Source: a virus | Lineage: Duplodnaviria > Caudoviricetes | Reading direction: 5' to 3' (one strand) | Length of the DNA stretch: 63,208 nt | IMG/VR virus record: IMGVR_UViG_3300030406_003636 | Location: 1 to 63,208 of that record | Shown: positions 25,702 through 60,716 of the stretch, piece after piece | How positions within the stretch are numbered: position 1 is the stretch's first letter | Layout: each line of letters begins with the position of its first letter | Translations under genes and position numbers: made by a program | Notes under the pieces: generated by a model | What the model saw: only the letters and a program-made list of their open reading frames with translations | What the model was told of the DNA's origin: nothing | Databases searched by the model: none

Positions 25702-28700
25702 ATGGCGGAGTTGAAGCGTAATTTCACATCAAGTCGTATGAATAAAGACCTTGATGAAAGGTTAGTGCCTAATGGCGAGTATAGAGATGCGTTAAACATT
25801 AGTATCTCAACTTCAGAATCATCTGACGAAGGTTCAGTTGAAAGTATAAAAGGTAATTCAAGAATAGGTATTCAAGCTCAAGATAGAAGCTTCACACAAA
25901 CATTAGGTATTACTGGTCAAAAATGTATAGGAACTGTCAGAGATGAAGAACAAAATAAAATTTATTGGTTTATATCTGGTACAAACGTTGATGCTATAGC
26001 TGAGTATGACGAAAATACAAATAGTGTGGCTTCTGTTTTTACAGATCTTTTTAATTTTACAACATCAGCAAACTACACAAATTCGCCATCAAACACAATT
26101 ACATTTAATACAGCACAGCCTAATATAAAAGTAGGTGCTGCTATCAGCGGTACTAATGTGATAAGTGGCACTACTGTAGCTAGCATATCAGCAGATAACA
26201 AAACAATAACACTTTCTAACAGCGGCCCAGCTACAATATCTGGAGCATTATCTATTGTAAATCCAAGGGCATTAAACTTCTCGCCTAGTATGTTTATAAC
26301 TGCTGCTAATATATTAGATGGTATATTATATTTTACCGATAATATTAATGAGCCAAAACAAATTGACATTAATAAAAGCAAACTTGGCACACCGGGTTTC
26401 TCCTCGTCAACTATACTAAGAGTAAAATCACAGCCACAAGATGCTGCTCTAAAAGAACATATCACGTTAATTAAAAAATCACCATTAAACGCCCCTAATA
26501 TTACAATGTCTAACAGTTTACGCGGTGGTATTGTAAACTCAACTTTTACTTCTGCGTCAAACTTTTTTGGTGATACTAACGGATCAAAAGCGCCAGGCAC
26601 AGAGCTAGGTGATATAATATTTTCGCCAAAACCAAGCTTTGAGGTTGGTGATAATTTAAAGTTTACTCACTCAGCCGTTGAAGAGGCTGGCGGTGAAACA
26701 ATTTTATACGAAGTTCGTGTTGTATTAACTAGCTTAGAAAGTGAGTCAGCTGTTGCAAAAACATTTAAATCAAAAATATTAAGTATAACTGATGACGTTA
26801 TACATAGCGCTAACGTACAGTGGGACGTAGCATTAGAACAAAAAGATCCATTTTTTGAGTTAGTTTTTCCAAGGTTTGCATACAGATGGAAATATGAAAA
26901 TGGTCAATACTCTGCTTTTTCACCATTTAGTGAGGTTGCTTTTTTACCTGACGAGGTTAACGGCTATAAGTTTGATTCAAAAAGCGGATTTAACAAAGCT
27001 ATGGTTAACACTGTAAGAAAAATAACGTTAAGCACTTTTGACACAAAGCCAAAAGATGCAGTTGAAGTTGATGTGTTATTTAAACAATCAAACAATACTA
27101 ACGTGTATACCGTTAAAACTTTAAAAAATAACGAAGATACAATTGACATTACGTCAGAGCAAATATATGCTACAGTACCATCTAATCAATTAATAAGACC
27201 ATATGATAATGTGCCTAGAAAAGCGCTAAGCCAAGACGTTGTAGGTAATAGATTAGTTTTTGGTAACTATATACAAAATTATAATATTGAAGACGAGCAA
27301 ACTGATGATGGTAAAATTAGTTCTACCGTTGCGTTTCAAACAAACGTTTTATCAAATAAAATAACAGAAAACACACCAACCAAATCGTTAAAGGCAATAC
27401 GTAAATATCAGCTTGGTGTTATATATTTAGACGAGTTTGGTAGACACACGCCTGTTTTTTCTGACGATACTGGTGTTATAACAATTGATCAAATACAGTC
27501 AAATACAGCCAATAAAATTGAAGCTAAAATAACAACACCAGCTCCATCCTGGGCAACACATTATAGATATTATATTAAAGAGCCTTCTAATGAATATTAC
27601 AACTTAGCATTAGATAGATACTACGAAGCAGAAGACGGTAACGTATGGCTTAGTTTTTCATCAGCTGATAGAAACAAAGTAGATAACGAAACGTTTTTAA
27701 TATTAAAAAAGAAACATACAGAAAATGTAAGTGTTTTTAATACTAGTGGTGGAACTGTAAAGTATAAAATACTTGATATAGCTAATGAAGCACCAACATT
27801 TATAAAACAAAAGAAAACATCGTTAGGTAAAATTACTACGCAGTTCGGTGAAAACTCAAATGCAGCTGAAGGTTTTCCACAAAAAGGATTTTTATCATTT
27901 AAGGTTAAAGGATCTGAGATAAATGTTTTAAAAGATTTAAACACAACTTCTGTAACTGATAAGTATATACGTATATCAACTAGTTCAAACGCATCAGAGT
28001 TATATCAGTTAAGCAGCATAAATGTTAATGACGCAGGTACTACTGGAGACTTAACAGAAGCTGCGGATACTTGGACGTTTAACATAGCTGAAGCTTTTGG
28101 TAGCGATATAGATTTTGTAGGAACAGGAACGAGTAAAACAGCTGGCTTATCATTAGAGGTATTACAAGAAGAGATAGACGAAAATAACCCTGAGTTTGTT
28201 GGTAGGTTTTTTGTTAAAGTACCTAGAGACGCAACACTTGATAAAAGTATTTTAACTAAAGCTGTTGATAGAGTATATAAAGTTAAAAACGCGCAAAACA
28301 TATTTAAAATAGATACGCAACATGACACTAAAGCAGATTTTTCAGATACTCAGCTTTTTGCTATTGATAAGTCTGGTGGATTTGATGAAGATAAAAACGC
28401 TTTAGCTGTAGGTAAAGGTGCTCAAGCAGGTAAAAAAACAATACAACTACGTTTAATAGGTATTGGTCCTGATAAAGAGCCACACACGTTGTTTCCAAAC
28501 GTTGTAAATTTAACTGCTAACGCGCAGCTAGACGGACAATTACGTGCTCCTGGTACTCTATTACGTTGGAGGTCAGATGGTTCAACAGATAACGTCTATG
28601 AGATTATAAGCTCATCACCTATCAAAGTGTTTAACTATGGTACAGGCCCTATTAGGCGTAAGAAAGCCGACAACAAAGGTATAAGATATACAATAACGTT

Positions 28701-31700
28701 AGACAGAGAGCTTTCATTTAATGCGCAAAACGCTGTGCAATCAGGTGTTACTTCAGACAGTGGAACAAGTACAGTTCTTGAAGTTGTTAGTGAAGTTATA
28801 AATGAAAATACATTTAGTAGTGATAGCCCAGCTGTGTTTGAAACAGAACCAAAACAAGCTGTTGATTTAGATTTATATTACGAAACAAGTAAGACATATC
28901 CAATAGCTGACTTAGCAACAAGTAAAACTTTAGATTATTTTAACTGTTTTTCTTTTGGTAATGGTGTTGAATCAAACAGAATACGTGATGATTTTAATGC
29001 GCCAACTATAGATAAAGGTGTAAGAGTATCTACTGTTTTAGCAGAGCAGTATAGAGAAGAGCACAAGAAAAGTGGTTTAATATACTCTGGTATATATAAT
29101 TCTACAAGCGGTATAAATAGATTAAATCAATTTATTGCTGGTGAAAAAATAACAAAAGATTTAAATCCAGAGTACGGATCAATACAAAAACTACACACAA
29201 GAAACACAGACTTAATAGCTTTATGTGAAGATAAAGTATTAAAAATACTAGCTAATAAAGACGCTTTATTTAATGCGGATGGTAACGTAAACTTAACTTC
29301 AACTAACAATGTTCTTGGCACAGCAATACCATTTGCTGGCGAATATGGTATAGCTAAAAACCCAGAGAGTTTTGCTAGTTACGGCTATAGGGCTTATTTT
29401 ACTGATAAAGCTAGAGGTGTTGTATTAAGATTATCAATGGACGGATTAACTAAAATATCTGACTATGGTATGGGTAATTATTTTACAGATAATTTAACTG
29501 CAGCAACAACGGTATTAGGTACATATGATGAAGATGGTAATAATTACAATGTTACGCTAAATAATGATACTGTAAGTTTTGCTGAATCTATAAACGGCTG
29601 GGAAAGTAGAAAATCGTATATACCAGAAGCTGGTATATCTTTAAATAAAACATACTATACTTTTAGTGGTGGTGATATGTGGAAACATACAGATACAGCT
29701 ACGCGAAATACTTTTTATGGAGGCTCATTTGTTGACTCACAAATAACATTATTACTTAATGACTTACCGTCAAGTATTAAAAAATACAAAACGATAAACT
29801 ACGAAGGTAGTAGATCAAGAGAATATAATGCGTCAGGCGCACAAACAAAAACTGGGTGGTATTTAAACAATATAACAACAGATCAACAGTCTGGTGAAAT
29901 ACAACAGTTTAAAGACAAAGAAAACAAGTGGTATAATTATATAAAAGGTAAAGCTATAAGTGGTGTAGATATTGATACTAAAAATTTTAATATACAAGGC
30001 GTTGGTAAACTATCAGCATTAAGTGGTAATGGACAAAGTTTATTTAATTTAAGCATAACAGTTAATACAACAGGTAAACTTATGACTTTAACTGGTGTTA
30101 GTAGTGACAATGCCGTGTGGACACTAGACGGTAATACAGCTACTTGTACAGGTGTTGGTCAAATAGCAGACACTGATCCTGTAGTGTTAACGTTTACTGC
30201 TGATGAAAACTGTAAACCTCCTTCAGCGCAAAGTGTAGACAGCTTACCATCTGAATTTAATGGCCAACCAGTGTATAACGCTACAAATAATACATTAACT
30301 ATAACGTTTAACAGCGAAACTTTAACTGCAAATAAAAATATAAATATAACACCAAGCGCGGCTTGTCCTGTTGAAACGTTTACAATATCTGGTACTTTTG
30401 ATGTAGATGTTAACAACACAACTGGTAGCAGCTCAACAAACAACGCGTACAGCGGTGATACTGCAAATAACGCTGAATTTAATAATTTGATAGACCAAAC
30501 GTTTACTGCATCAGCAGATCATTATTTTTTTAGTGAACCGCAAATAATATTTACTGACGTTAAGCATCGAGATAATTACAAGGTTATTGTAACAGATACA
30601 AACGATAGTGATGGTAATTTAACAGCTAGGCGTTTTCAAGTTTCATACACAATTAGAGACAAAGAAAGTGTAACTACAGACAAAATAAGGTTTGTAGCTA
30701 GAGCTATAAATAATCAAGCATCAACAGGTAAATTATATAACTTTACTTGTGATCAAACTGATATGAACTTCTTTGGCGCTGAAAGGGTTATAAGTGTTTA
30801 TGGTGATCCTACTGCTACGTATAAATTATCTATATCTGATGGTAGCAATACGTATGATTTTTCTAGTAATACTTTTACAAGTAGCTCTACTGAAAGTGGA
30901 ACATTAACTATAGGTACGCAAGGCTCATCATCTACAACTATTGATTTTCCAAGTGTAACAGCTAACAAAACTTACACAACTACTATAACTGCTGTTGGCG
31001 GTGGGGTTAGTTGGAATACTGGTAACGCTACAACAAGAACATTTACTATTGATCAGAAAAAAGAAGTATTTATAAGGTTTACACCAACAAACGTTAATGC
31101 TATTGATGGGTCAAACGGAAATCAAACAATAACACCAAGTAACATAACAGTTACATCGACTGCTGGCGATACTCAAACGCAACGTGTGTTGTTAGAGTTT
31201 ACTGTAACGGAAACAAACGATATTGTACTATTAAGTACACCACAGTATAGTAGCTTCTCGGGTGATATAGCTTCAACTAATAACACAACTAGAGAGCTAA
31301 CATTAAATGATGGTGGTAAAGTTACTATCGATAATCACAGCATAACATTAGATAACAACTCAACACCTAAATCAGCTACATATAGAGCCACGGCTTTAAT
31401 TTCTCAGTTTGGTACAGATAACGATACTGTTAACATTAATCTCGCTAATCATTTAAGTGCTGGTTTATCTAGCAATCAGTATGTTACATTAGCACCTACT
31501 GTTGCTGCTAATGATGCTGGTGAAACAAACTTAACTGGAGTTACGTTTACATCAGGATCGCAGGTGTTAAGTAGCGCTGATGTTGCAACTGGTACAGGTG
31601 AAGTGACAGGTGATTTTAGCGAATTTAATATTGATGAAGTTACAATAAACGTTCAAGCGATAACAGATAGTAGCCAAATACAAGGTTTTGGTTTAAGCAC

Positions 31701-31851
31701 TAGTACAACTAATTTAGTACAAAGCGTACAGCCTACTTCTTTAACAGCTACTAAAGCAACGTTTAATTGGGCTGCTACATTAATTCCAAATAACACAGTT
31801 GCTAACAACGAATACAATGTAGCTATAAGTGTAGATTTAATTGGTGTATAA
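25702..31851 (+). CDS. Tail stabilisation/nozzle protein (P22 gp10-like) with long beta-rich C-terminal extension
   Basis: MNKDLDERLVP.GEYRDA.N, GNGVESNRIRDDFN, GEYGI..NPESF, FKDKENKWY. Confidence 0.75.
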   Translation: MAELKRNFTSSRMNKDLDERLVPNGEYRDALNISISTSESSDEGSVESIKGNSRIGIQAQDRSFTQTLGITGQKCIGTVRDEEQNKIYWFISGTNVDAIAEYDENTNSVASVFTDLFNFTTSANYTNSPSNTITFNTAQPNIKVGAAISGTNVISGTTVASISADNKTITLSNSGPATISGALSIVNPRALNFSPSMFITAANILDGILYFTDNINEPKQIDINKSKLGTPGFSSSTILRVKSQPQDAALKEHITLIKKSPLNAPNITMSNSLRGGIVNSTFTSASNFFGDTNGSKAPGTELGDIIFSPKPSFEVGDNLKFTHSAVEEAGGETILYEVRVVLTSLESESAVAKTFKSKILSITDDVIHSANVQWDVALEQKDPFFELVFPRFAYRWKYENGQYSAFSPFSEVAFLPDEVNGYKFDSKSGFNKAMVNTVRKITLSTFDTKPKDAVEVDVLFKQSNNTNVYTVKTLKNNEDTIDITSEQIYATVPSNQLIRPYDNVPRKALSQDVVGNRLVFGNYIQNYNIEDEQTDDGKISSTVAFQTNVLSNKITENTPTKSLKAIRKYQLGVIYLDEFGRHTPVFSDDTGVITIDQIQSNTANKIEAKITTPAPSWATHYRYYIKEPSNEYYNLALDRYYEAEDGNVWLSFSSADRNKVDNETFLILKKKHTENVSVFNTSGGTVKYKILDIANEAPTFIKQKKTSLGKITTQFGENSNAAEGFPQKGFLSFKVKGSEINVLKDLNTTSVTDKYIRISTSSNASELYQLSSINVNDAGTTGDLTEAADTWTFNIAEAFGSDIDFVGTGTSKTAGLSLEVLQEEIDENNPEFVGRFFVKVPRDATLDKSILTKAVDRVYKVKNAQNIFKIDTQHDTKADFSDTQLFAIDKSGGFDEDKNALAVGKGAQAGKKTIQLRLIGIGPDKEPHTLFPNVVNLTANAQLDGQLRAPGTLLRWRSDGSTDNVYEIISSSPIKVFNYGTGPIRRKKADNKGIRYTITLDRELSFNAQNAVQSGVTSDSGTSTVLEVVSEVINENTFSSDSPAVFETEPKQAVDLDLYYETSKTYPIADLATSKTLDYFNCFSFGNGVESNRIRDDFNAPTIDKGVRVSTVLAEQYREEHKKSGLIYSGIYNSTSGINRLNQFIAGEKITKDLNPEYGSIQKLHTRNTDLIALCEDKVLKILANKDALFNADGNVNLTSTNNVLGTAIPFAGEYGIAKNPESFASYGYRAYFTDKARGVVLRLSMDGLTKISDYGMGNYFTDNLTAATTVLGTYDEDGNNYNVTLNNDTVSFAESINGWESRKSYIPEAGISLNKTYYTFSGGDMWKHTDTATRNTFYGGSFVDSQITLLLNDLPSSIKKYKTINYEGSRSREYNASGAQTKTGWYLNNITTDQQSGEIQQFKDKENKWYNYIKGKAISGVDIDTKNFNIQGVGKLSALSGNGQSLFNLSITVNTTGKLMTLTGVSSDNAVWTLDGNTATCTGVGQIADTDPVVLTFTADENCKPPSAQSVDSLPSEFNGQPVYNATNNTLTITFNSETLTANKNINITPSAACPVETFTISGTFDVDVNNTTGSSSTNNAYSGDTANNAEFNNLIDQTFTASADHYFFSEPQIIFTDVKHRDNYKVIVTDTNDSDGNLTARRFQVSYTIRDKESVTTDKIRFVARAINNQASTGKLYNFTCDQTDMNFFGAERVISVYGDPTATYKLSISDGSNTYDFSSNTFTSSSTESGTLTIGTQGSSSTTIDFPSVTANKTYTTTITAVGGGVSWNTGNATTRTFTIDQKKEVFIRFTPTNVNAIDGSNGNQTITPSNITVTSTAGDTQTQRVLLEFTVTETNDIVLLSTPQYSSFSGDIASTNNTTRELTLNDGGKVTIDNHSITLDNNSTPKSATYRATALISQFGTDNDTVNINLANHLSAGLSSNQYVTLAPTVAANDAGETNLTGVTFTSGSQVLSSADVATGTGEVTGDFSEFNIDEVTINVQAITDSSQIQGFGLSTSTTNLVQSVQPTSLTATKATFNWAATLIPNNTVANNEYNVAISVDLIGV

Positions 31852-34510: not shown

Positions 34511-37500
34511 ATGGCAACACAAAAATTATATAACACTTTAGTAAATCGTGGGTTATATACTAAATCTTTTGACGCATTTAAACAGCAGTTTAATGACCAA
34601 AAATATAGAGAAAAAGTATATAACACTGTCACGCGTGATGGTTTGTATACTAAAGATTTAAATGAGTTTCAAACTCAGTACGCGCCTGACAACGTAAAAG
34701 ATGAAGTAGGTACTATACAAAATTTAGTTGGTGCGCTTGGCGAAGGTTTTGCAGGGCAAATTGGAGGCGGTTTGTCAGACTTAACAGTTGGTTTAGCGTT
34801 AAACACTAAGATGTTTTGGGAAAAAAACTTTGGTGATGGCGATGTTAGCGAAGATGATAAAGCTAGATTTAGAAGAGAAGCTTACCTTGAGAACAAAGAC
34901 AATATATTATTAAATCCTGACTTTTGGAAAGGTGCAGAAGATTATTTTAGAAGCATACAAAAAGAATACGAAGATCCAACAATATCAGAAGCTTTTACTA
35001 AAGCTAGTAGCATTAGTGATTATTTAGAGTTAGGCGAAAGAATAGTAGCTGGTATTTTTAAATCAGCGCCTTCTTTATTAGCTGCGTATTCAGGGCCAGG
35101 CGCTCTAGCTGTATATGGTACTAGTTTAGCTGGTGATAAGTATTTAGAAGAGTTTGATAAAGATCCAACGCAAGCTAATTCAAGATTACTTGCTAGTGCT
35201 ATAGGTACATCTGCCATTGAAGTTGGCTTTGAGTTTGCTACAAGAGGTTTAATGAAACAAGCTGGTTTGGTTGTAAAGCAAGGTAATAAAGAAGCAGCAG
35301 AAGCTATAATAAAAGGTGGTACTAAAACCATGTTCCAAAAGTTTGGTAAACCTTTAGCTCAAGAAGGTGCATCAGAGGCAGCTACTGAATTAACAAGCTT
35401 GATATATGATGCTGCTATATTAAACCCGGATGGCGTATCAGGTATTGACTGGGCAAAAGAAAAATACAGATTATTTGATGCTGGTATAGTAGGGTCAGCT
35501 ATGGGTGGTACTATAGGTTCGTTAGGTAATATAAGTAATCGTAATGAAAGAAGAAGATTAGAACAGATATTAATGCCAGATGAAGTCAAACAGCAAATAG
35601 AAAGCTCTGGTGATAGAATATCTAAATTAGTACGTGAATCAGATGGTGCTGATGCTGATACAAAATCTTTAATTGAAGATCAAATAAACAAAGAAAACAG
35701 AAATATAGTTAAGCTAAAAAATGAAGTATCAACTAAGCTTAACAATATGAATGAAACTGAGCTAAGAACTTATGCAAAAAACAAAAACGAAATAGCTAAA
35801 GTTCAAATGCAACTAAAAAAGCTTGATGTTAATTCTGAAGTATATAAGCCTGTAAAATCAAAATATGATTTATTAATAAAACAAAACTCAACGTTATATA
35901 ATAACGCTACAAAAAGAAGATTACAAGAAGACGTTACATCTGTAAAAAAACTAGCTAAAAAACAAGGTATAAAAAAAGTTAGTGTTTTAGATGATAAAGG
36001 TTTTCAAGACGCATACAAGAATACAGAAGAAGGTAGTAAGTTAAATGATAAACAATTAGCTTTACAAGCTAGCGGCGTGTCTGGGTTTTACGATAAAGCA
36101 ACTAATAGTATTTTTATTAATAAAAACGCTGCTGAAAATTATGGCCAAGTAACTGTTGCTAGCCATGAGTTACTACACCCCGTTTTAAATAAAGTATTTG
36201 GTTCAGGTGAAAGTCAAGCTGCTAAAGTTGCTGATTTTAAAAGTATATTATCTAGTAAACAAAGACGGTTAATGGATCAAGAAATGACCAACCGTGGTTA
36301 TACTAAACAAGAAGAAGCAACAGAATATTTTAATGTATTTCTTGATGCTGTAGCAGATAATAAATCTGAAATAGCTTTTGAGAAAAATTTATTCACACGT
36401 ATAGGTGAGTTTTTAAAATCAATATTTGGAGAGTATAATATTAACAATATGGATTTTGGCGATGCTAACGGTGTATTTAACTTTTTAAAAGCATACCAAG
36501 AAAGCGTTAAGCAAGGAGAGTTTACGCAAGAAGTTTCTGATATTATAGGAGATTTAAGTGACTTGCAAGATCTCGATGCTACTGGAAAACAAGACTCAAG
36601 AAACGCATCAGATCAGGTACAGCAAATATATCAACTACAGGGTCCAGCTGGTGCATTTGATATTATAGAGTTATTTAAGCCCATTACAAATAAAATAGTA
36701 GAGAAACGTAGAGGAGCGCCTAACTTTGATAAAACTTTATTAACAGAAGAAATAGAAACGGGTGAACGTGGCATTATAGACTTAATTAACGAGTACAAGC
36801 CAGACTCTGGTGTACCATTAGCAGCGTATATAAATAAGTTTTTACCGGCTAGGGCTATTGAAGCTTCACGTAGAATTTTAGGTGAAGAGTTTACAACAGA
36901 CATTGATGAAGCTAGAGGCATTGCGGCAGAAGAAGTTGCAGCGCCTGAAATAGAAACAAAGCCAAAAGCTAGACAAATAAATCCTATAGATTTAGCTAGA
37001 GATGAAACTATAAAAGAACAATATACTGAAGAGGTTGTTAGCGCTTTACAAGATGTAAATTTAGAAAAAGCAAATTTTAAAAACTTAAAAGATTTAGCCT
37101 CAACAATAACAGCTAAAATATTTAATGTACCAGCAAAGAAAATTACTGATGCTACAGCTAATTTAACTAAGCAAGAAAAAGAAAATGCCTTAAAATTTAT
37201 TAGAGCTAACGCGTTAGATTTAATTGCTTTATTACCTGAAGGCGCAGTAACAGAAGCTGCTACAGAAAAATTAATTGGTACTTCTACAGGTGTACCAAAG
37301 AGTTTGTTAAATAAATTTTACACAAAACAAAGTAGAATAACAAAAGGTGCTGGGCTATCACCGTTTACTAAAAACGCTAACATAAACAAAAAAGAGTTTT
37401 TAGAAGCTTTTGGTATCGTTGAAGGTAAAAAATCTACAGACTTTGGACCAAGAACACCTGAAGCTCAAGCTGTTAAAGCTATGATGTCATTATATGGTAA

Positions 37501-40500
37501 ACTAGCTACTAATAGTATAGCGCGTGAGCAACTAACAAATCAAGAGATTAATCAAAGTATTATAGGTGATTTAGCTGCTGGTAAATCTAGTATTCAGTTT
37601 AGTAAAAACACAAAAGCGTTACTAGAAAACAACGGCATTGAAGGTTATGTTAATGTTTTAGACAACCCTGATGTTTACATAAACGACATGGTGCCTCTAA
37701 TTATAGAAGTTTTAGGTGATAGAATATTAGGAGTTAACATTGCTAATAGACGTGGTGAATTAAACGCTGAGTTATGGACTGGTTTATTTGGCAAGCATCC
37801 AGATAGAAAACGTATTATACCAGAGTTACAAAAATTAAGAATTAAAATTGATAATGATAATCAACCAACAGGTAACCCTAATTTTAAAACAACATTTTTT
37901 AAAGATGGTAAGTTTGACCAAGGTAAAATAAAAGACATACAAAAGTTTAACGAGCAGGTTGGTAAAACTTTTGATGAAATGTGGATGAGAATTTTTGATG
38001 CTGTATCGAGAGATACAAAATATGTTTTACCAATAATGACATACATGCAAGCATCAACTAACTCTAAAACACACCCTATGAGAAATGGTGCTCAAGCTAC
38101 GCACATGGATTTTAAATCTGATGATATAGTATTAGAGCATGCATATCCACAGTCACAAGCAGCTAGAGATATTATGCAAGCTGTAATTGATAATAGAAAT
38201 AACAGAGAAGAGTTCTTAAATAAATTTAATAAAATAAAAAAAGAGTACGTTTTACATGGCATTGATAGATCTCAAGACACTAAAATAAATCAAACTAAAG
38301 AACTAGTAACTGATAAAAACCATGAGAGCTTTGGTAAAGTAACATCTTTAAAAGATCATAGTGGTAAAGATTTTGACTACATGAAACATAGTCATTTACG
38401 TAGGTATGTTAAAGCTAATGTTAATCTTGATAATTTAATATCATTAAAAACAGGTCAGCCTTTAACAGAAGAACTTGGTATAGATGGTTACGGAAACCCT
38501 ATATCAAAAGAATCTGCGGAAATAAGAAAGCAAGCAGCTGAATTAAATGAACAGCTGTTTGATAACTTAATTAAAGGTAAACCAGTTGAACAGCAAGTAG
38601 AAGATTTAAAAACGCTTGATAGAGCTTTAAACTTTTCAAGAGTACCAAGACCAGAAAAAGGTATTTCAATATTTGACTTTGACCAAACGCTAGCTAACAC
38701 TAAAGAAAAAATTAAAGTCACAATGCCTGATGGCGCTGTAAGTAGGATAGACGCAGCTGAGTTTGCTAGAGAGGCAGAGCAACTTGAGGCTGACGGAGCT
38801 GAGTTTGATTTTGCTGAATTTAATAAAGTAAAAGGCGCAACTAAAGGACCATTTTTTGAGCTGGCACAAAAGATAAAAGGTAAGTTTGGTAATAAAGATA
38901 TATTTATATTAACAGCAAGACCACAAAACGCAGCGCCAGCTATACAAAAGTTTTTAAAGGGTGTAGGTTTAGATATAAGATTAGAAAATATAACTGGTTT
39001 AGAAGACGGTAGTCCACAAGCTAAAGCAAAATTTGTAACTAAAAAAGTTGAAGAAGGTTATAATAACTTTTTCTTTGGTGATGATGCATATAAAAACGTT
39101 GAGGCCGTACAAGAAGTTTTAAACGTAGCTGATGTAAAAAATGATGTGCAGCAAGCTAAGATACAATTTAGTAAAAATTTAAATAAAAGATTTAACGAAA
39201 TAGTATCTGAAAATAAAGGTATTGATCCTGAAGCTAGATTTTCTGAAGCCGCAGCTAAAGTGCGTGGCGCTAAAGCGGATAAATTCTGGTCAAGGTTATT
39301 TGTGCCGCCATCGGCGGAGGATTTTAAAGGTTTATTATATATGCTAGTAGGCAAAGGTAAGAAAGGAGAGTCGCAAATGCAGTTTTTTGAAGACGCCTTA
39401 ATTAAACCTTTTGCTAGAGCATTTAGAGATATTAACGCGGCTAAACAAAAAATAGCTAATGAGTACGCTCAGTTAAAAAAAGATTTACCAAGCGTAAAAA
39501 GAAACTTATTACAAGCTACTGATTATAACAACTTTACTTTTGATCAAGCTATACGTGTGTATTTAATGAATAAAAATGACATTGATATACCTGGTATAGC
39601 AAAAAGAGACACAGATGCTTTAGTTAAAATAGTTGAAGCTAATCCTGAATTAACGCAGTACGCTGATAGAGTTTCGCAAATAATGAATAAACAAGAAGGA
39701 TACATAGTGCCAACTGATGTTTCTTGGTTATCATCTACAGTTGAACAAGATTTAAAAGATTTAAATAATAAAGTAAATAGATCTGAATATTTATCTGAGT
39801 GGGTAAATAACAAAAATGAAATATTCACAAGCGACAATTTAAATAAATTAGAAGCGTTATACGGTAGATCTTATAGAGAAGCATTAGAAGATATATTGTA
39901 TCGTATGGAAATTGGTAGCAATAGACCAGCAGGTCAAAATAAGTTAGTTAATGATTTTACCAGCTGGATCAACAACGCTGTAGGTAATATAATGTTTTTA
40001 AATGTAAGGTCTGCTTTATTACAGACAATATCATTTGCTAACTTTGTAAACTGGAGTGATAATAATCCGATAAAATACATGGCTACTGTAGCTAATTTTC
40101 CACAGTTTGCAAAAGATTTTGCAATGATATGGAACTCAGACTTCTTAAAAAATAGAAGAGCAGGATTACAAACAGATGTTAGCGCTTCTGAAATAGTAAA
40201 TCAAGCCGCTAATTCTAAAAATAAAGTAAGTGCTATATTATCATATATATTAGGTAAAGGATATTTACCAACACAAATGGGTGATAGTTTTGCTATATGT
40301 ATGGGTGGCGCAGGGTTTTATAGAAACAGAGTAAGCAGTTATGTAAAGCAAGGATTAAATCAAGCTGAAGCTGAAGCAAGAGCGTTTGCGGACATGCAAG
40401 AAACATCTGAAGACGCACAGCAGTCTGCTAGACCAGATAAAATATCACAACAACAAGCTGGTCCACTTGGTAGATTTATATTAGCGTTTCAAAACACGCC

Positions 40501-41185
40501 AATGCAATACACCCGTATGATAAAAAAAGCTGCTTTAGATTTAGCTAACGGTAGAGGTGATGCTAAAACAAACATATCAAAAATATTATATTATGGTGCT
40601 ATACAAAACTTTATATTCTCAGCGCTACAAAGCGCATTGTTTGCTTTAGCATTTAGCGACGAAGAAGAAGAAAAAGAGAAACAAAGATATAGTAGAATAG
40701 CTAACAGCATGGCAGATACTATATTAAGAGGTACTGGTGTTTATGGTGCTGCAGCATCAACATTAAAAAACATAGCACTGCAGTTTGTAAAGCAAGAGAA
40801 AAAAGGATCGAGAGCAGATCACGCTTATACTATAATAGAGGGTGTCAACTTGTCACCTCCAATAGGCAGTAAAATAAGAAAATTATATTCAGCAACACAG
40901 GCTGTTAAGTTTAATAGAGATGAGATAGCTGAAATGGGTTTTAATATAGATAATCCAGCTTATGATGCGGTTGCTAATACAGTTTCCGCTGTAACTAACG
41001 TGCCTCTTGATAGGGCGGTTCGTATTACTGATAACGCTAGAGCGGCATTAGATAAAAACAACGAAGCTTGGCAGCGCGTTGCTTTAGTTTTAGGTTGGAA
41101 TACGTGGGACTTAGGCATACAGCCAAACAAACAAAACACTGGTAAGAAAAGAAAAAATAAGAAAAGAGAGATAATTTTATACTAA
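34511..41185 (+). CDS. Large polyvalent internal virion protein (zincin, sigma-R2-like, HNH-like, HAD modules)
   Basis: HELLH aa552; GIIDLINEYKPDSGVPLAAYI within the sigma-like segment from aa715; EHAYP aa1209; DFDQT aa1389, ILTAR, GDD. Confidence 0.75.
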   Translation: MATQKLYNTLVNRGLYTKSFDAFKQQFNDQKYREKVYNTVTRDGLYTKDLNEFQTQYAPDNVKDEVGTIQNLVGALGEGFAGQIGGGLSDLTVGLALNTKMFWEKNFGDGDVSEDDKARFRREAYLENKDNILLNPDFWKGAEDYFRSIQKEYEDPTISEAFTKASSISDYLELGERIVAGIFKSAPSLLAAYSGPGALAVYGTSLAGDKYLEEFDKDPTQANSRLLASAIGTSAIEVGFEFATRGLMKQAGLVVKQGNKEAAEAIIKGGTKTMFQKFGKPLAQEGASEAATELTSLIYDAAILNPDGVSGIDWAKEKYRLFDAGIVGSAMGGTIGSLGNISNRNERRRLEQILMPDEVKQQIESSGDRISKLVRESDGADADTKSLIEDQINKENRNIVKLKNEVSTKLNNMNETELRTYAKNKNEIAKVQMQLKKLDVNSEVYKPVKSKYDLLIKQNSTLYNNATKRRLQEDVTSVKKLAKKQGIKKVSVLDDKGFQDAYKNTEEGSKLNDKQLALQASGVSGFYDKATNSIFINKNAAENYGQVTVASHELLHPVLNKVFGSGESQAAKVADFKSILSSKQRRLMDQEMTNRGYTKQEEATEYFNVFLDAVADNKSEIAFEKNLFTRIGEFLKSIFGEYNINNMDFGDANGVFNFLKAYQESVKQGEFTQEVSDIIGDLSDLQDLDATGKQDSRNASDQVQQIYQLQGPAGAFDIIELFKPITNKIVEKRRGAPNFDKTLLTEEIETGERGIIDLINEYKPDSGVPLAAYINKFLPARAIEASRRILGEEFTTDIDEARGIAAEEVAAPEIETKPKARQINPIDLARDETIKEQYTEEVVSALQDVNLEKANFKNLKDLASTITAKIFNVPAKKITDATANLTKQEKENALKFIRANALDLIALLPEGAVTEAATEKLIGTSTGVPKSLLNKFYTKQSRITKGAGLSPFTKNANINKKEFLEAFGIVEGKKSTDFGPRTPEAQAVKAMMSLYGKLATNSIAREQLTNQEINQSIIGDLAAGKSSIQFSKNTKALLENNGIEGYVNVLDNPDVYINDMVPLIIEVLGDRILGVNIANRRGELNAELWTGLFGKHPDRKRIIPELQKLRIKIDNDNQPTGNPNFKTTFFKDGKFDQGKIKDIQKFNEQVGKTFDEMWMRIFDAVSRDTKYVLPIMTYMQASTNSKTHPMRNGAQATHMDFKSDDIVLEHAYPQSQAARDIMQAVIDNRNNREEFLNKFNKIKKEYVLHGIDRSQDTKINQTKELVTDKNHESFGKVTSLKDHSGKDFDYMKHSHLRRYVKANVNLDNLISLKTGQPLTEELGIDGYGNPISKESAEIRKQAAELNEQLFDNLIKGKPVEQQVEDLKTLDRALNFSRVPRPEKGISIFDFDQTLANTKEKIKVTMPDGAVSRIDAAEFAREAEQLEADGAEFDFAEFNKVKGATKGPFFELAQKIKGKFGNKDIFILTARPQNAAPAIQKFLKGVGLDIRLENITGLEDGSPQAKAKFVTKKVEEGYNNFFFGDDAYKNVEAVQEVLNVADVKNDVQQAKIQFSKNLNKRFNEIVSENKGIDPEARFSEAAAKVRGAKADKFWSRLFVPPSAEDFKGLLYMLVGKGKKGESQMQFFEDALIKPFARAFRDINAAKQKIANEYAQLKKDLPSVKRNLLQATDYNNFTFDQAIRVYLMNKNDIDIPGIAKRDTDALVKIVEANPELTQYADRVSQIMNKQEGYIVPTDVSWLSSTVEQDLKDLNNKVNRSEYLSEWVNNKNEIFTSDNLNKLEALYGRSYREALEDILYRMEIGSNRPAGQNKLVNDFTSWINNAVGNIMFLNVRSALLQTISFANFVNWSDNNPIKYMATVANFPQFAKDFAMIWNSDFLKNRRAGLQTDVSASEIVNQAANSKNKVSAILSYILGKGYLPTQMGDSFAICMGGAGFYRNRVSSYVKQGLNQAEAEARAFADMQETSEDAQQSARPDKISQQQAGPLGRFILAFQNTPMQYTRMIKKAALDLANGRGDAKTNISKILYYGAIQNFIFSALQSALFALAFSDEEEEKEKQRYSRIANSMADTILRGTGVYGAAASTLKNIALQFVKQEKKGSRADHAYTIIEGVNLSPPIGSKIRKLYSATQAVKFNRDEIAEMGFNIDNPAYDAVANTVSAVTNVPLDRAVRITDNARAALDKNNEAWQRVALVLGWNTWDLGIQPNKQNTGKKRKNKKREIILY

Positions 41186-54113: not shown

Positions 54114-54863
54114 TTATAAATAATCTATAACCTGTGAAGGATCAACATTGTCTATTAATCTTTGCACAGCTTGTTTTTTTAATTGAGATACCCTAACGTA
54201 AGAACTCGTGCCTTTTATTTCTAATATCAAAGCTATTTGTTTAGCTGAATGTTTATCACAATCAAGTCCATAGCTTAATCTTAGCACTTCATACTCTTTT
54301 CTGTTCAAGTATTTCTTCATTAAACTTTTTAAATAACTATTTAAAAGATCTATATTATATTTTTCAGTTTTATCTTCGATCTGAAATATCATATCGTTAT
54401 TTTCAGTCTGCTCTTCAATACTTAAAAATATTGAATTAAAAAACTGAGCAACAAGCTTTTTATCTTCGCCTAAGTTTCTACGCATCTCGTTTAACTTATG
54501 CTCAGGTATTCTCATGCCTGCTCTATTAATATCAATAGCTCTTCTTATAGCACCTTTAATTCGTTTAGATAAAAACGATATTAAAGTTTTTTCTGGATTA
54601 TCACTATCAATGATAGTATCCCAGTCAATTTTATTAGCCGCAGCAATTAAGCCATAGCTACCTTCCTGTATTAAATCTGTTATATCTAATACTCCTGACG
54701 CTGCTTGGCCAGTTGAAAACTTACGTGCTAAATTTTCAACTAGATATAAGTAACGTACTTTAACAGCTTCAGTATCACCTAATATGTCTTCAGGTAACCT
54801 GCTGTTAACTTGTTCTACATCATTTTTATACCTGATGTAGTTTTCAACATTATACTTTCTCAT
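54114..54863 (-). CDS. Sigma-70 family RNA polymerase sigma factor
   Basis: DLIQEG..GL, I.GAIRRAI...RIP (region 2/3); E.EVLRLSYGL...RVSQLK..A (region 4). Confidence 0.9.
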   Translation of the reverse strand: MRKYNVENYIRYKNDVEQVNSRLPEDILGDTEAVKVRYLYLVENLARKFSTGQAASGVLDITDLIQEGSYGLIAAANKIDWDTIIDSDNPEKTLISFLSKRIKGAIRRAIDINRAGMRIPEHKLNEMRRNLGEDKKLVAQFFNSIFLSIEEQTENNDMIFQIEDKTEKYNIDLLNSYLKSLMKKYLNRKEYEVLRLSYGLDCDKHSAKQIALILEIKGTSSYVRVSQLKKQAVQRLIDNVDPSQVIDYL

Positions 54864-57487: not shown

Positions 57488-57518
57488 TATTATCCAATGG
57501 TGTTCGTATTTAATTTGT
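57488..57518 (-). promoter_or_regulatory. Early promoter motif copy
   Basis: ACAA-ATTAAA-TACG-AACACCATT-GGATAATA. Confidence 0.75.
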
Positions 57519-58015
57519 TAATCATATCCTGTTGGATGTAGTAAATCTTTTGCTACATACTGTTTTTCTTGTTGTGATCTAGTTTGCGTAACCCAGTCAG
57601 TGTAGTCATACTTCTGATTACTATACTTCGCAAGTATTTTATCAGGTGTAAGTACAAATACATTTGCTGTCCTGTATTGATCATAGCAGCTTACCCACAT
57701 ATCTTTGTTATCACCTGTCCATATTACATATGTATAGTTATGATCTATAACTTCTGGACCTTCATATAAGTAGCAACTGTCATAGTACATATCATGTACA
57801 AGTTTAGCTGCAAGCTTAGTGCCATCGTTAATTGTTTGGTTAGCTAATAACCAGTTAGCTATTTGTACGCCTTGCCACTCAGGATAACCATCGTGATGCA
57901 AGTACATATTAACATAGCTATGTTCTTCTAGCAACTCAGGGTTTTGTGCAAAACCTAGTTCGTGGTTGCTTGCGTAATCTCTATCGATTACCATTGTCAT
58001 GTTTCTAGTGCTCAT
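57518..58015 (-). CDS. Conserved phage hypothetical protein
   Basis: MSTR...Y.HHDGYP...G, D..Y.Y motif. Confidence 0.7.
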   Translation of the reverse strand: MSTRNMTMVIDRDYASNHELGFAQNPELLEEHSYVNMYLHHDGYPEWQGVQIANWLLANQTINDGTKLAAKLVHDMYYDSCYLYEGPEVIDHNYTYVIWTGDNKDMWVSCYDQYRTANVFVLTPDKILAKYSNQKYDYTDWVTQTRSQQEKQYVAKDLLHPTGYD

Positions 58016-58301
58016 CTAATAATTGTTTAAATTTGTGTTTAGTTATAATATCGCCGCAGTATTTATATATTGTTTCTTTATCTTGTGTAACACAAAGCTC
58101 TTTTGACTTTGTTTTAGCACCAAGGTCAACGCATATATCTTTACTGCAGTCATGATAAACTTTCCATATAGCTTCTAATGTTCTACGTGGATCGTCAGTT
58201 TCGCCTACGACATGCTCGTCGTCACAGGTAAACCAATATCTATATTTTTTCTTTTTATATTGTGATTTTTTAATTAAGTTACCTCTAGCGTCTATTTTCA
58301 T
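58005..58301 (-). CDS. Hypothetical protein
   Basis: Coupled ORF. Confidence 0.55.
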   Translation of the reverse strand: MKIDARGNLIKKSQYKKKKYRYWFTCDDEHVVGETDDPRRTLEAIWKVYHDCSKDICVDLGAKTKSKELCVTQDKETIYKYCGDIITKHKFKQLLDEH

Positions 58302-58456
58302 TTTAAGCCGCTTTTCATATCTTTAATCATTTCATGGATGTCACTGTGGTAGTCACTCCATTTATCTCTGTGTTCTTCGTAAAAAGACTGTTCACATCTT
58401 CTTTGCATGTCATCTTTTATTATTTCTAATAAACTTTGTAAGTGATCTGTTCTCAT
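58298..58456 (-). CDS. Hypothetical protein (52 aa)
   Basis: Hand-translated MRTDHLQSLLEIIKDDMQRRCEQSFY...; ATGA overlaps at both ends. Confidence 0.55.
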   Translation of the reverse strand: MRTDHLQSLLEIIKDDMQRRCEQSFYEEHRDKWSDYHSDIHEMIKDMKSGLK

Positions 58457-58761
58457 CTTTCATCTTTAAATAATGCTAAACCAAGCTTAGCATAGTTAAT
58501 AATATCAGCAAATCTACTATCAATAGACTCTGCTTTTACTATATTATCATGGTTAACATGCGAAAATATACTATTTACCTGCTTGTCAAAGTATGTAGCC
58601 CATACCTTTAACGCACTGGTATTCAATCGCTTAGCTGTACTTTTAAAATTATTTAGTACATCATCATGCATTACTGTGTACTCAGGGCCTTTATCTCTCA
58701 TTATATGATCAGCCATGAGATCAATTTGTTGTCTTAATTTATTAAATTCTTTTTGTGTCAT
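58453..58761 (-). CDS. DUF1599/Nmad1-like nucleotide-modification-associated protein
   Basis: KG.EY...D.L.NF...ES..SRF.DIINY. Confidence 0.6.
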   Translation of the reverse strand: MTQKEFNKLRQQIDLMADHIMRDKGPEYTVMHDDVLNNFKSTAKRLNTSALKVWATYFDKQVNSIFSHVNHDNIVKAESIDSRFADIINYAKLGLALFKDER

Positions 58762-58762
58762 A

Positions 58763-58903
58763 TTATTTACCGTTAGACATTTCGTTATATAATTCTATTA
58801 ATCTGTCTGTTTTCGCTTCTGCTATTAATCGTTCTACTTCTTCTTCGCCATAGTGCGCGCAAAGTGCTTCGATCATAGCCTGCTCGTGTAGTAATCCTTC
58901 CAT
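58763..58903 (-). CDS. Hypothetical protein (46 aa)
   Basis: MEGLLHEQAMIEALCAHYGEEEVERLIAE... Confidence 0.5.
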   Translation of the reverse strand: MEGLLHEQAMIEALCAHYGEEEVERLIAEAKTDRLIELYNEMSNGK

Positions 58904-58906
58904 ACA

Positions 58907-59134
58907 TTACATTTTACTGTTAAACATAGTGTCAGGCCAAAGTATATCGCCATCAGTAACTGTAGTTACATCGCCAAATGCTCTGATCTGTTTAATTTCA
59001 CCGATTGTGAGTTCGTTGTAATACTGCTTTGATTTAAGTGTTTTAATAATACCTGTTATACTTACGGCATAATCATTGCTGTTTCTATGCAGTCTTGTTT
59101 TAATTTCTGGTTTTAGTTTTTGGTATAAATTCAT
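58907..59134 (-). CDS. Hypothetical protein
   Basis: ATG 5 nt downstream of promoter motif. Confidence 0.6.
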   Translation of the reverse strand: MNLYQKLKPEIKTRLHRNSNDYAVSITGIIKTLKSKQYYNELTIGEIKQIRAFGDVTTVTDGDILWPDTMFNSKM

Positions 59135-59139
59135 AATTA

Positions 59140-59170
59140 TATTATCCGTAGTTAATCGTATTTACTTTGT
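59140..59170 (-). promoter_or_regulatory. Early promoter motif copy
   Basis: ACAA-AGTAAA-TACG-ATTAACTAC-GGATAATA. Confidence 0.75.
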
Positions 59171-59355
59171 ATAATTTTTAATTCTTCTTCAATATCCTCT
59201 CTGTAATGAAGTATATCGTCACAGTAGGCTAACATATCTATCAGACCATTTCTTTCATACTCTGTTAGATCTTTATAATCGCCGTCCATAATGGCGTCCA
59301 AGCAGTCGCTCATAGCTTTACTTGTATTTTCAAATCTGCAATAACTCATATTCAT
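59152..59355 (-). CDS. Hypothetical protein (NMSYCRFENT type)
   Basis: MNMSYCRFENT...DC; start ATG 59355. Confidence 0.65.
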   Translation of the reverse strand: MNMSYCRFENTSKAMSDCLDAIMDGDYKDLTEYERNGLIDMLAYCDDILHYREDIEEELKIIQSKYD

Positions 59356-59371
59356 ATCTGGCGGCCAACCT

Positions 59372-59633
59372 GTGAGCAATGTCATAAGCTTCTCACGATG
59401 GACCGAGTTACGTATTGTTCACTTTGGGCTCACCCCTGGACGAAGTTACATCGCCTCCCCAATACTGCGGTGCTTCCATCAGCCTGTAGTGGTCAGTGAA
59501 GGAATCGAACCTTCATTGTTTTCAACACGAGATCTACCGTGTTTCCTGTATTGTGCTACGTTCCGAAGAACCGAACCACCCATACCTGACCTGCGGTGTT
59601 ACTCATAGGTGATCAAACCTAACTAGTTACCGC
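59372..59633 (-). ncRNA. Candidate structured ncRNA containing a tRNA-like domain (59490-59591)
   Basis: Acceptor-like GGTCAG/CTGACC-A, T-arm GAAGG-TTCGATT-CCTTC, cUUCGg hairpin, flanking stems; GC-rich intergenic region. Confidence 0.6.
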
Positions 59634-59671
59634 TGCGTTATCAGTGAATCTCCTAGGATAAATAATAACGC

Positions 59672-59887: not shown

Positions 59888-59892
59888 ACATT

Positions 59893-60711: not shown

Positions 60712-60716
60712 AATAG

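What the first reader, a model, noticed from the sequence alone, without database searches (positions are those of the whole stretch)
36653..36883. Sigma-70 region-2-like module inside a virion ejection polyprotein: possible injected sigma factor
Seen: aa ~715-790 of the 2224-aa protein read ...LLTEEIETGERGIIDLINEYKPDSGVPLAAYINKFLPARAIEASRR. This parallels the sigma-70 region 2 pattern (DL.QEG..GL..A...FDP..G..F.TY....I...I....R). Seen: I recognise no RNAP gene, the stand-alone sigma (54114-54863) lies downstream of six non-host promoter motifs, and those motifs do not match the Bacteroidota TTTG/TAnnTTTG consensus. Inference: where crAss-like phages inject a virion RNAP, this phage may inject a sigma-like domain that redirects host core RNAP to its early promoters, giving a two-sigma cascade.
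Basis: partly seen in the sequence, partly recalled or inferred. Interest (0 to 1): 0.85.

Follow-up and report, generated by a model that had tools for sequence, protein, structure and literature searches.

The report
Sigma-like cassette inside giant phage protein
A giant protein that this marine flavobacterial phage probably packs into its particle contains a genuine but very divergent copy of the sigma-factor part that grips bacterial RNA polymerase, so the phage may bring its own transcription starter in with its DNA, although nothing has been tested at the bench.

Summary
The quoted peptide is there (aa 743-788 of the 2224-aa ORF 34511-41185). Its likeness to sigma-70 region 2 is real homology but weak. 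The window's own segment hits no Pfam family. However, 7 of 21 aligned family members hit Sigma70_r2, 43 of 50 PDB matches of the family profile are sigma factors, and the AlphaFold model superposes on a sigma domain 2 (TM 0.69, 2.5 A).

The domain is the head of a conserved cassette of about 340 aa: an acidic sigma2-like domain, a conserved acidic disordered linker, and a basic 215-aa domain. That last domain folds confidently but has no sequence or fold match, and it is not sigma region 3 or 4.

The host protein also carries a conserved HExxH zincin and HAD motifs. It lies in the virion block downstream of the crass-type muzzle gene, the relative position at which PhiCrAss001's listed cargo and RNA-polymerase proteins are numbered. 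The 63-kb genome (98% complete) shows no RNA polymerase. It has one free sigma and six phage-specific promoter-like motifs.

Packaging, polymerase binding and sigma activity are untested, so "injected sigma" is only partly supported. This scan has already noted the same cassette in at least 22 other genomes. I found no paper describing it.

The parts
34511..41185 (+). Giant 2224-aa multi-domain protein (P0002) that hosts the cassette; probably a virion cargo or ejection protein
   Evidence: ORF. More than 1539 homologues of 1223-3892 aa in metagenomes. Lies after the muzzle gene in the virion block. A syntenic 3694-aa 'structural protein' exists in Flavobacterium phage elemoF and shares aa 187-340 (pairwise E 3e-7).
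36008..36592 (+). Zincin-like region with HELLH (aa 552-556, nt 36164-36178)
   Evidence: H, E and H columns are at least 90% conserved in 54 aligned rows. Weak Pfam hits in homologues: Peptidase_M78 at 0.036 and DUF6782 at 0.072.
36593..36895 (+). Sigma-70 domain-2-like domain (aa 695-795), acidic (pI 5.0); contains the finding
   Evidence: AF2 gives five helices with block-mean pLDDT 82-90. Aromatic Y/W and Asn (AAYIN) are present in 21 of 21 A3 rows.
36896..36964 (+). Conserved acidic linker (aa 796-818, pI 4.05), predicted disordered
   Evidence: pLDDT <50 for model residues 105-129. FxTD..EA..AAEE...KP.ARKI.PID is conserved even in the P0017-type relative. Charge.
36965..37609 (+). Basic domain 2 (aa 819-1033, pI 9.4), confident fold with no known match; ends in IQFSKN
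   Evidence: AF2 alone gives pLDDT 87.2 and pTM 0.86. 0 PDB sequence hits at E<=10. 0 sigma among 41 Foldseek hits. 386 representatives at E<=0.001, and the best 150 are nearly all giant proteins. A sigma2-like hit lies directly upstream in 87 of 127.
38645..39178 (+). HAD-like module (DFDQT at aa 1389-1393, LTARP, GDD at aa 1523-1525)
   Evidence: Motifs read. D-F-D-x-T-L-A, T-A-R-P and D-D columns are at least 90% conserved. No Pfam hit.
39179..41182 (+). Most conserved C-terminal region (aa 1557-2224), basic, with one hydrophobic helix at aa 2030-2048
   Evidence: Covered by 119 of 119 homologues. Hydropathy peak. No Pfam, PHROG or PDB hit.
25702..31851 (+). Crass-type muzzle protein (context)
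   Evidence: PF25729 crAss_MUZ_C at E 1.3e-8; phrog_14478 at 2.7e-132.
54114..54863 (-). Free-standing phage sigma factor (249 aa)
   Evidence: phrog_351 at 5.2e-18; Pfam r2 at 0.0021 and r4 at 0.003, both below cut-off.
57489..61542 (-). Six promoter-like motifs TACG-N9-GGATAMT, at 57489, 59141, 59894, 60718, 61374 and 61523
   Evidence: 6 exact copies plus 1 one-mismatch copy; expected 1.31; 0 of 100 shuffles reach 7. Flanks.

Best explanation
Shown: aa 695-795 is a real, strongly diverged homologue of sigma-70 domain 2 (regions 2.1-2.4). Together with a conserved acidic disordered linker and a basic 215-aa domain of unknown fold, it forms a cassette of about 340 aa and 37 kDa. The cassette is one module of a giant zincin-bearing multi-domain protein encoded in the virion block.

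Inferred: the giant protein is packed in the capsid as cargo, as crassvirus polymerase proteins are, and is extruded ahead of or with the DNA. The cassette may be cut out at the flanking QDS[R] and QFSK motifs. Its sigma2-like domain then docks on the beta-prime clamp helices of host core RNA polymerase. This captures polymerase for the incoming phage DNA at time zero, most likely to start transcription at the phage-specific TACG-N9-GGATAAT motifs before the free sigma gene downstream can be expressed. The basic second domain would stand in for the missing sigma4.
For: Homology:
- Pfam Sigma70_r2 in homologues P0028 (26.0 bits, cut-off 24) and P0017, and in 7 of 21 A3 members.
- 43 of 50 PDB hits of the A3 profile are sigma factors.
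- The top hit of the window-type-only profile is sigma domain 2, 8b3z_A, at E 0.024.
- The AF2 model (pLDDT 81.9) matches 8b3z_F with TM 0.69, rmsd 2.5 A over 76 columns and probability 0.97, and 4x8k_A SigA domain 2. About 33 of the 47 Foldseek rows listed are sigma chains.
- In BFVD, Synechococcus phage S-CBWM1 sigma scores E 8.4e-3 with probability 1.00.
- An aromatic residue plus Asn at the region-2.3-like AAYIN position is present in 21 of 21 rows.

Cassette:
- A sigma2-like hit lies directly upstream of domain 2 in 87 of 127 representatives and nowhere else in any.
- The linker is conserved yet disordered.
- Charge pattern is acidic, acidic, basic.
- Two short ORFs, P0247 (352 aa) and P0244 (424 aa), correspond to the cassette alone.

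Cargo context:
- The gene order TerL, portal, capsid-like, muzzle, three small genes, giant gene is the same as in phage elemoF, whose giant gene is annotated as structural.
- PhiCrAss001 virions contain gp45, gp46 and the polymerase proteins gp47, gp49 and gp50 by mass spectrometry (PMC10172136, passages). By number these follow the muzzle, which I take to be gp44 from recall; the gene map was not read.
- Family members carry SLT or zeta-toxin modules.

Need for a starter:
- No RNA polymerase was found.
- Only 2 strict host-type TTTG-N17-21-TAnnTTTG sites exist, both antisense in coding DNA, against 2.36 expected.
- The six phage motifs are confined to the early arm upstream of the free sigma.
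Against: - The window's own segment hits no Pfam family. Alone, it does not reach the Pfam-positive subtypes by phmmer.
- All Foldseek PDB E-values are >=0.19.
- hhalign against the free sigma gives a probability of only 6%.
- No sigma3 or sigma4 is present: domain 2 has 0 PDB sequence hits and 0 sigma fold hits.
- The W433/W434-equivalent positions (numbering recalled) are K/S and F/Y, so -10 melting ability is uncertain.
- 40 of 127 domain-2 proteins had no sigma2 HMM hit, and 4 of those scanned showed no Sigma70_r2.
- No cultured phage carries the protein, so no virion proteomics exists for it.
- The phage has a complete free sigma that could read the six motifs itself.
Confidence: 0.4

Rival explanations
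1. The delivered sigma2-like domain binds host polymerase but confers no promoter specificity. It could act as a decoy that blocks host sigma binding (instant host shut-off), or as a tether that holds polymerase at the ejection channel so that transcription helps pull the DNA in.
For: Only the core-docking domain of sigma is recognisable. There is no sigma3 or sigma4. The region-2.3 Trp pair is not conserved. The free sigma can supply specificity.
Against: The aromatic residue plus Asn at the melting position is invariant in 21 of 21 rows. The sigma2 domain is always coupled to a conserved basic domain and linker, which a simple decoy would not need.
Confidence: 0.2
2. The sigma2 fold has been put to another use that does not involve RNA polymerase. 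Examples are gripping single-stranded or end DNA of the packaged genome, or contacts between proteins inside the capsid.
For: Divergence is very high and the window sequence fails Pfam. Domain 2 is confined to this giant-protein family. Sigma2 domains bind single-stranded DNA (established knowledge).
Against: The conserved positions are those of regions 2.2-2.3 (D..G..G...[FY].P....[YW].N), including the core-binding helix.
Confidence: 0.15
3. The giant protein is not delivered. It works late in the producing cell, for example as an assembly factor or a late transcription factor, or the cassette is degraded during maturation.
For: No proteomics exists for any member. 'Structural' for the elemoF counterpart is an annotation only.
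Against: It lies in the virion block at the cargo position. It shares an N-terminal region with the elemoF giant protein. Some members carry SLT modules typical of ejection proteins.
Confidence: 0.1
4. The resemblance to sigma is convergent or due to chance: a helical bundle with a similar pattern.
For: The single-sequence evidence is insignificant. Foldseek E-values are weak.
Against: Independent subtypes pass or approach the Pfam threshold. 43 of 50 profile hits are sigma. The fold, the register and the aligned region agree across methods.
Confidence: 0.07
5. The sigma-like domain is the specificity module of a cryptic virion RNA polymerase hidden elsewhere in the same protein, as in crAss-like phages.
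For: The gene lies downstream of the muzzle gene, the relative position of the crassvirus polymerase genes if the recalled muzzle number gp44 is right. Such polymerases escape sequence searches (recalled: Drobysheva et al. 2021, not seen here).
Against: P0002 has no DxDxD motif, and 82 of 119 homologues have none. In the whole genome, only two D[FYWLIVM]DxD sites lie in stop-to-stop frames of at least 150 aa, the two frames being 214 and 250 aa long. There are no Rpb1 or Rpb2 Pfam matches. The remaining regions (345 aa, HAD, 668 aa) are short for a two-barrel enzyme.
Confidence: 0.03

Closest known systems
Sigma-70 family domain 2 (Pfam PF04542), e.g. SigE N-terminal domain 8b3z and M. tuberculosis SigA domain 2 4x8k
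   Same: Helical fold, with a best superposition of TM 0.69 and 2.5 A. The region 2.2-2.3 pattern D..G..G...[FY].P....[YW].N is present. The domain is acidic.
   Different: It is embedded in a 2224-aa protein. The window sequence falls below every Pfam threshold. It has no region 3 or 4. The Trp pair of region 2.3 is absent.
T4 gp55 late sigma (7d7c)
   Same: A sigma with only a sigma2-like domain that still directs promoter-specific initiation with helper proteins (recalled). This is a working model for a cassette without sigma4.
   Different: gp55 is a free 185-aa protein made after infection. The sequence relation here is insignificant (A3 profile against 7d7c_F, E 0.56).
Virion RNA polymerases delivered as cargo: PhiCrAss001 gp47/49/50, Cellulophaga phage phi14:2 gp66, N4 vRNAP
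   Same: A giant protein encoded downstream of the muzzle gene in the virion block. The presumed purpose is the same, namely transcription of early genes without new protein synthesis.
   Different: There is no catalytic DxDxD motif and no polymerase fold signal. Only a host-polymerase-binding module is present.
Polyvalent proteins of phages and conjugative elements (Iyer et al. 2017, PMC5512222)
   Same: A giant chain of exchangeable effector modules with a zincin peptidase, thought to enter the host with the DNA. Family members carry SLT or zeta-toxin modules.
   Different: There is no Pfam LPD or MuF domain in the window protein. That paper contains the word 'sigma' 0 times by the search listing.
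Free-standing phage sigma factors, including this phage's own 249-aa sigma
   Same: The same superfamily. hhalign aligns region 2.2-2.4 (P 0.006).
   Different: The free sigmas have region 4, are expressed from the injected genome, and are not fused to virion proteins.

Membership tests
Sigma-70 family, domain sigma2 (PF04542) | The window's own sequence matches the Pfam model at its gathering score | tested here: not met
   No Sigma70_r2 hit at E<=1 in the whole protein, none in the 367-aa fragment, and none at E<=0.01 in the 107-aa fragment.
Sigma-70 family, domain sigma2 (PF04542) | Positionally equivalent segments of homologues match the Pfam model | tested here: met
   P0028 scores 26.0 bits (cut-off 24, E 7.9e-6) and P0017 scores 22.4 bits. 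7 of 21 A3 members hit at E<=0.01, best 9.7e-8. 4 further divergent members had no hit.
Sigma-70 family, domain sigma2 (PF04542) | Sigma2 helical fold | tested here: met
   The AF2 model matches 8b3z_F with TM 0.69, rmsd 2.5 A over 76 columns and probability 0.97, and 4x8k_A with TM 0.49. About 33 of 47 listed rows are sigma chains. However, all E-values are >=0.19. In BFVD a phage sigma scores E 8.4e-3.
Sigma-70 family, domain sigma2 (PF04542) | Region 2.2-2.3 signature residues | tested here: met
   D/E..G..G...[FY].P and [YW].N are present. The aromatic residue and Asn occur in 21 of 21 rows. There is a gap-free 36-column alignment to 8b3z_A. The Trp-pair positions are not conserved.
Sigma-70 family, domain sigma2 (PF04542) | Binds beta-prime clamp helices of core RNA polymerase | not testable with these tools
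   Needs a binding assay or a structure with Flavobacteriaceae core polymerase.
Complete sigma factor (sigma2 plus sigma4) | Region 4 helix-turn-helix domain downstream of region 2 | tested here: not met
   No Sigma70_r4 or r3 in Pfam. The domain-2 profile gives 0 PDB hits at E<=10. The domain-2 model gives 41 Foldseek hits, none a sigma.
Complete sigma factor (sigma2 plus sigma4) | Promoter-specific initiation with core polymerase | not testable with these tools
   Needs in vitro transcription on the six motifs.
Phage cargo, ejection or polyvalent proteins | Giant multi-module protein with a zincin, encoded in the virion block | tested here: met
   HExxH columns are at least 90% conserved. 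The gene follows the muzzle gene. Synteny with the elemoF 'structural protein'. Modules vary between members: SLT, zeta toxin.
Phage cargo, ejection or polyvalent proteins | Pfam LPD or MuF hallmark domains | tested here: not met
   None in P0002 at E<=1. There is only a weak LPD14 hit (E 0.0088, below cut-off) in relative P0328.
Phage cargo, ejection or polyvalent proteins | Physically present in virions and delivered to the host | not testable with these tools
   No cultured carrier is known. Needs virion mass spectrometry.
Two-barrel virion RNA polymerase (crAss-like) | Catalytic DxDxD motif and polymerase domains | tested here: not met
   P0002 has no DxDxD. There are no PF00623 or PF00562 matches in six frames, and the controls rang in 14 of 14. 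There is no PDB sequence hit.

The most novel reading that the evidence does not exclude
A third way for a phage to start its programme, besides using host holoenzyme or injecting a whole RNA polymerase. The virion would deliver a protease-released, two-domain sigma-like factor: a sigma2 domain, an acidic finger-like linker, and a new basic DNA- or flap-binding domain. This factor would reprogramme host core polymerase onto the TACG-N9-GGATAAT early promoters. The free sigma downstream would then take over, giving a two-sigma cascade. The cassette is widespread in abundant marine flavobacterial phages.
Probability: 0.3. Interest if true: 0.85.

Novelty: new variant of a known kind. Interest (0 to 1): 0.66.

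Why it matters
How phages of Bacteroidota start transcription is poorly understood. Host sigma A reads unusual promoters, and crAss-like phages solve the problem by injecting a polymerase.

A virion-borne sigma-like module would be a cheaper solution and a new class of delivered effector. It would also explain phage-specific early promoters in genomes that have no polymerase.

The family is large, with more than 1539 clusters at 90% identity. This phage group is abundant in ocean metagenomes, so the mechanism would bear on a major share of marine flavobacterial infections.

The second domain is a confident fold with no known relative. It may be a new polymerase- or DNA-binding domain.

Tried and rejected
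- Searches with the whole protein gave nothing useful. Pfam, PHROG and PDB phmmer found nothing. Megablast and tblastn against 50,697 phage records found no match. The full-length family profile against PDB gave only coiled-coil, low-complexity hits.
- A co-fold of the sigma2 region (A3) with residues 1-420 of Flavobacterium johnsoniae RpoC gave the verdict 'no answer'. Scores were 0.34, 0.34 and 0.41, and one control scored 0.17. It counts neither for nor against binding.
- The ESM Atlas search on aa 815-1040 gave no usable hit.
- A search for homologues of the free sigma returned 8000 hits, but the top 120 are all at least 92% identical. They were therefore useless as a diverse sigma profile.
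- An N-terminal fragment (aa 151-350) against phages gave only a weak DarB-like hit in Vibrio phage VvAW1 (E 0.1). I rejected it as insignificant.
- The first promoter pattern had the wrong spacing and gave chance-level matches. It was corrected.
- I considered that domain 2 might be a sigma4-like helix-turn-helix, because Foldseek aligned whole sigma factors over 200-320 columns. I rejected this after folding domain 2 alone and after the profile search.
- I considered a hidden RNA polymerase and rejected it. The PF00940 search is uninformative because its controls did not ring.
- Literature searches turned up no paper that describes a sigma domain inside a virion or ejection protein.
  - In fRuSau02, sigma and anti-sigma were seen by mass spectrometry but were judged to be co-purified (PMC5618024, passages).
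  - Other papers read as passages only: PMC7824862, PMC6669764, PMC8776804 and PMC10172136.
  - PMC5512222 was seen only as a search listing.
  - Drobysheva et al. 2021 on phi14:2 gp66, the T4 gp55 biology and the sigma70 residue numbers are recalled, not seen.
  - Supplements were not opened. Virion proteomics tables for Cellulophaga and elemo phages could bear on the 'structural protein' label.
Full report
WHAT IS THERE. The window is a whole IMG/VR virus record of 63,208 bases, 98% complete by CheckV. ORF 34511-41185 (+) encodes 2224 aa. Window 36653-36883 is aa 715-791, and the quoted string is aa 743-788.

THE PHAGE.
- ORFs on the + strand give large terminase (phrog_6681), portal (phrog_6547), a capsid-like 'virion structural protein' (phrog_13704), two further structural proteins, and a 2049-aa protein with the crassvirus muzzle C-terminal domain (PF25729, E 1.3e-8). 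Three small genes and the 2224-aa gene follow.
- The minus-strand arm encodes ribonucleotide reductase, a thymidylate-synthase homologue, MazG, primase-helicase, exonuclease, ERF, ligase and a 249-aa sigma factor.
- The nearest cultured relatives by portal are Flavobacterium phages of the genus Elemovirus (about 44% identity), followed by Cellulophaga, Tenacibaculum and Maribacter phages. The host is therefore probably a member of Flavobacteriaceae.
- Phage elemoF has the same gene order, with a 3694-aa 'structural protein' at the same place. It shares only an N-terminal stretch with the window protein: aa 187-340, pairwise E 3e-7.
[quoted passage not shown] By their numbers these genes follow the muzzle gene, which I take to be gp44 from recall; I did not read the gene map. 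The giant gene here lies in the same relative position, downstream of the muzzle gene.

IS THE SIGMA LIKENESS REAL? By itself the window segment is below detection. It has no Pfam hit, and phmmer from it does not reach the most divergent subtypes. The family tells a different story.
- The protein has more than 1539 homologues of 1223-3892 aa in metagenomes.
- An iterated local HMM of aa 700-800 finds the region in 105 of 119 of them.
- Two subtypes hit Pfam Sigma70_r2 at the equivalent position: P0028 at 26.0 bits against a cut-off of 24, and P0017 at E 1e-4. P0017 is collinear with the window protein over aa 172-2203 at 48% identity.
- In alignment A3 (the window plus 20 diverse members), 7 of 21 hit PF04542, best 9.7e-8.
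- The A3 profile retrieves 50 PDB sequences at E<=10, and 43 of them are sigma factors, best 0.0047.
- A profile of window-type sequences alone has the SigE N-terminal domain 8b3z_A as its top hit. The E-value is 0.024, with a gap-free 36-column alignment over regions 2.2-2.3.
- AlphaFold2 of aa 690-1040 (pLDDT 81.9) gives a five-helix domain.
  - Its best superpositions are sigma domain 2 structures: 8b3z_F with TM 0.69 and 2.5 A, and 4x8k_A.
  - About 33 of the 47 rows listed are sigma chains.
  - No E-value is better than 0.19.
- BFVD gives phage sigma factors right after a family member.
- hhalign against the phage's own free sigma aligns the right region, with P 0.006 and probability 6%.
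- An aromatic residue and an Asn at the AAYIN position are present in 21 of 21 rows.

I put true homology at about 0.85-0.9.

THE CASSETTE.
- The sigma2-like domain (aa 695-795, pI 5.0) is followed by an acidic linker. The linker is predicted to be disordered, yet it is conserved across subtypes.
- Next comes a basic domain (aa 819-1033, pI 9.4). Folded alone it is confident, with pLDDT 87.2 and pTM 0.86.
  - It has no PDB sequence hit at E<=10.
  - No sigma appears among its 41 weak Foldseek hits.
  - So it is not region 3 or 4.
- In 1.84 billion representatives, this domain occurs in 386 proteins at E<=0.001. The best 150 are nearly all giant proteins.
- Where at least 150 aa lie upstream, a sigma2-like hit sits directly before the domain in 87 of 127. 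None has a sigma2-like hit elsewhere, and 40 have no hit.
  - By eye, the upstream sequence of most of the 12 misses printed shows the same [FY][DN]P...aromatic pattern.
  - However, 4 such proteins gave no Pfam sigma hit.
- The cassette is bounded by QDSR (aa 694-697) and IQFSKN (aa 1028-1033). The motif FS[KR] occurs 2.78 times per family protein, against 0.94 in shuffles.
- Two short metagenomic ORFs equal the cassette alone: P0247 (352 aa) and P0244 (424 aa).

REST OF THE PROTEIN.
- The HExxH zincin columns are at least 90% conserved.
- HAD motifs are conserved.
- The basic C-terminal 668 aa are shared by 119 of 119 homologues and contain one hydrophobic helix.
- Other family members carry SLT or zeta-toxin/AAA_33 modules.
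- There is no DxDxD motif. There is no Rpb1 or Rpb2 match in six frames.
- D[FYWLIVM]DxD occurs only in two stop-to-stop frames of 214 and 250 aa, among frames of at least 150 aa.

TRANSCRIPTION CONTEXT.
- Six exact copies of TACG-N9-GGATAMT lie on the minus strand between 57.5 and 61.5 kb. Counting one further one-mismatch copy, none of 100 shuffles reaches the 7 matches found. The copies have shared upstream bases.
- The free sigma gene lies downstream on the same strand.
- The strict host-type pattern TTTG-N17-21-TAnnTTTG occurs twice, both times antisense inside genes, against 2.36 expected.

MECHANISM. The best reading (0.4) is a virion-delivered, possibly protease-released, sigma-like cassette. 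It would dock on host core polymerase and start early transcription. The steps after 'is a sigma2 homologue in a virion-block giant protein' are inferred. The rivals are:
- a decoy or tether without promoter specificity (0.2);
- an exapted fold that does not involve polymerase (0.15);
- a protein that is not delivered (0.1);
- chance resemblance (0.07);
- a hidden polymerase (0.03).

COMPARISON AND NOVELTY.
- The domain works like sigma domain 2, and like the sigma2-only T4 gp55. It is not a complete sigma factor, and the window sequence itself fails the Pfam test.
- The carrier resembles polyvalent or cargo proteins but lacks their Pfam hallmarks.
- The five literature searches found no description of such a fusion.
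- This scan has already noted the same cassette in other genomes. At least 22 findings hold the search words, and several follow-ups reached the same 'partly supported' verdict.
- New here are four results:
  - the second domain is a confident fold without a match and is not sigma4;
  - the sigma2-linker-domain 2 unit stays together across the family;
  - cassette-only ORFs exist;
  - host-type consensus promoters are absent.

Noticed in passing
window 57489-61542 (-), plus 62842-62861: There are six exact copies of TACG-N9-GGATAMT, with shared upstream ACAAA.TAAATACGA, and one one-mismatch copy. All lie on the minus strand of the early arm, and 0 of 100 shuffles reach 7.
   Followed up: partly
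whole window: The strict Bacteroidota-type promoter pattern TTTG-N17-21-TAnnTTTG occurs only twice, at 8101-8130 and 40578-40607. Both are antisense in coding DNA and at chance level, with 2.36 expected.
   Followed up: partly
window 37592-37609 and 39161-39178 (IQFSKN), 38627-38641 (LNFSR): The short FS[KR] motif recurs at module borders. It is about 3-fold enriched in 119 family proteins against shuffles, 2.78 versus 0.94 per protein. These may be cleavage sites for the zincin.
   Followed up: partly
window 38645-39178: An HAD-type motif set (DFDQT, LTARP, GDD) has columns at least 90% conserved in the family but no Pfam hit.
   Followed up: partly
window 54114-54863 (-): The free sigma has 8000 scored relatives, and the best 120 are all at least 92% identical. 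This phage group is therefore very abundant in marine metagenomes.
   Followed up: no
proteins P0247 (352 aa) and P0244 (424 aa), ENA contigs of about 2 kb: These short ORFs start and end at the borders of the sigma2 plus domain 2 cassette. They may be free-standing versions or broken genes.
   Followed up: partly
L010 18719-29803 (NC_055853.1): The syntenic giant gene of Flavobacterium phage elemoF (3694 aa) carries DUF3293 (E 1e-12) and no sigma-like hit. It shares only an N-terminal Gly/Ala-rich stretch with the window protein.
   Followed up: partly
proteins P0328, P0331, P0343, P0420: In some relatives, domain 2 lies near the C-terminal end (for example 1797-1996 of 2197) instead of the middle. 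This points to module shuffling within the family.
   Followed up: no
window 2-1384 (+): The phage encodes a GroEL-like chaperonin (phrog_5725, 1.8e-113). The relative elemoF encodes GroES.
   Followed up: no
window 37610-38644 (aa 1034-1378): A 345-aa module with a nearly invariant E-H pair (EHAYPQSQ) has no family match. It was not folded.
   Followed up: no
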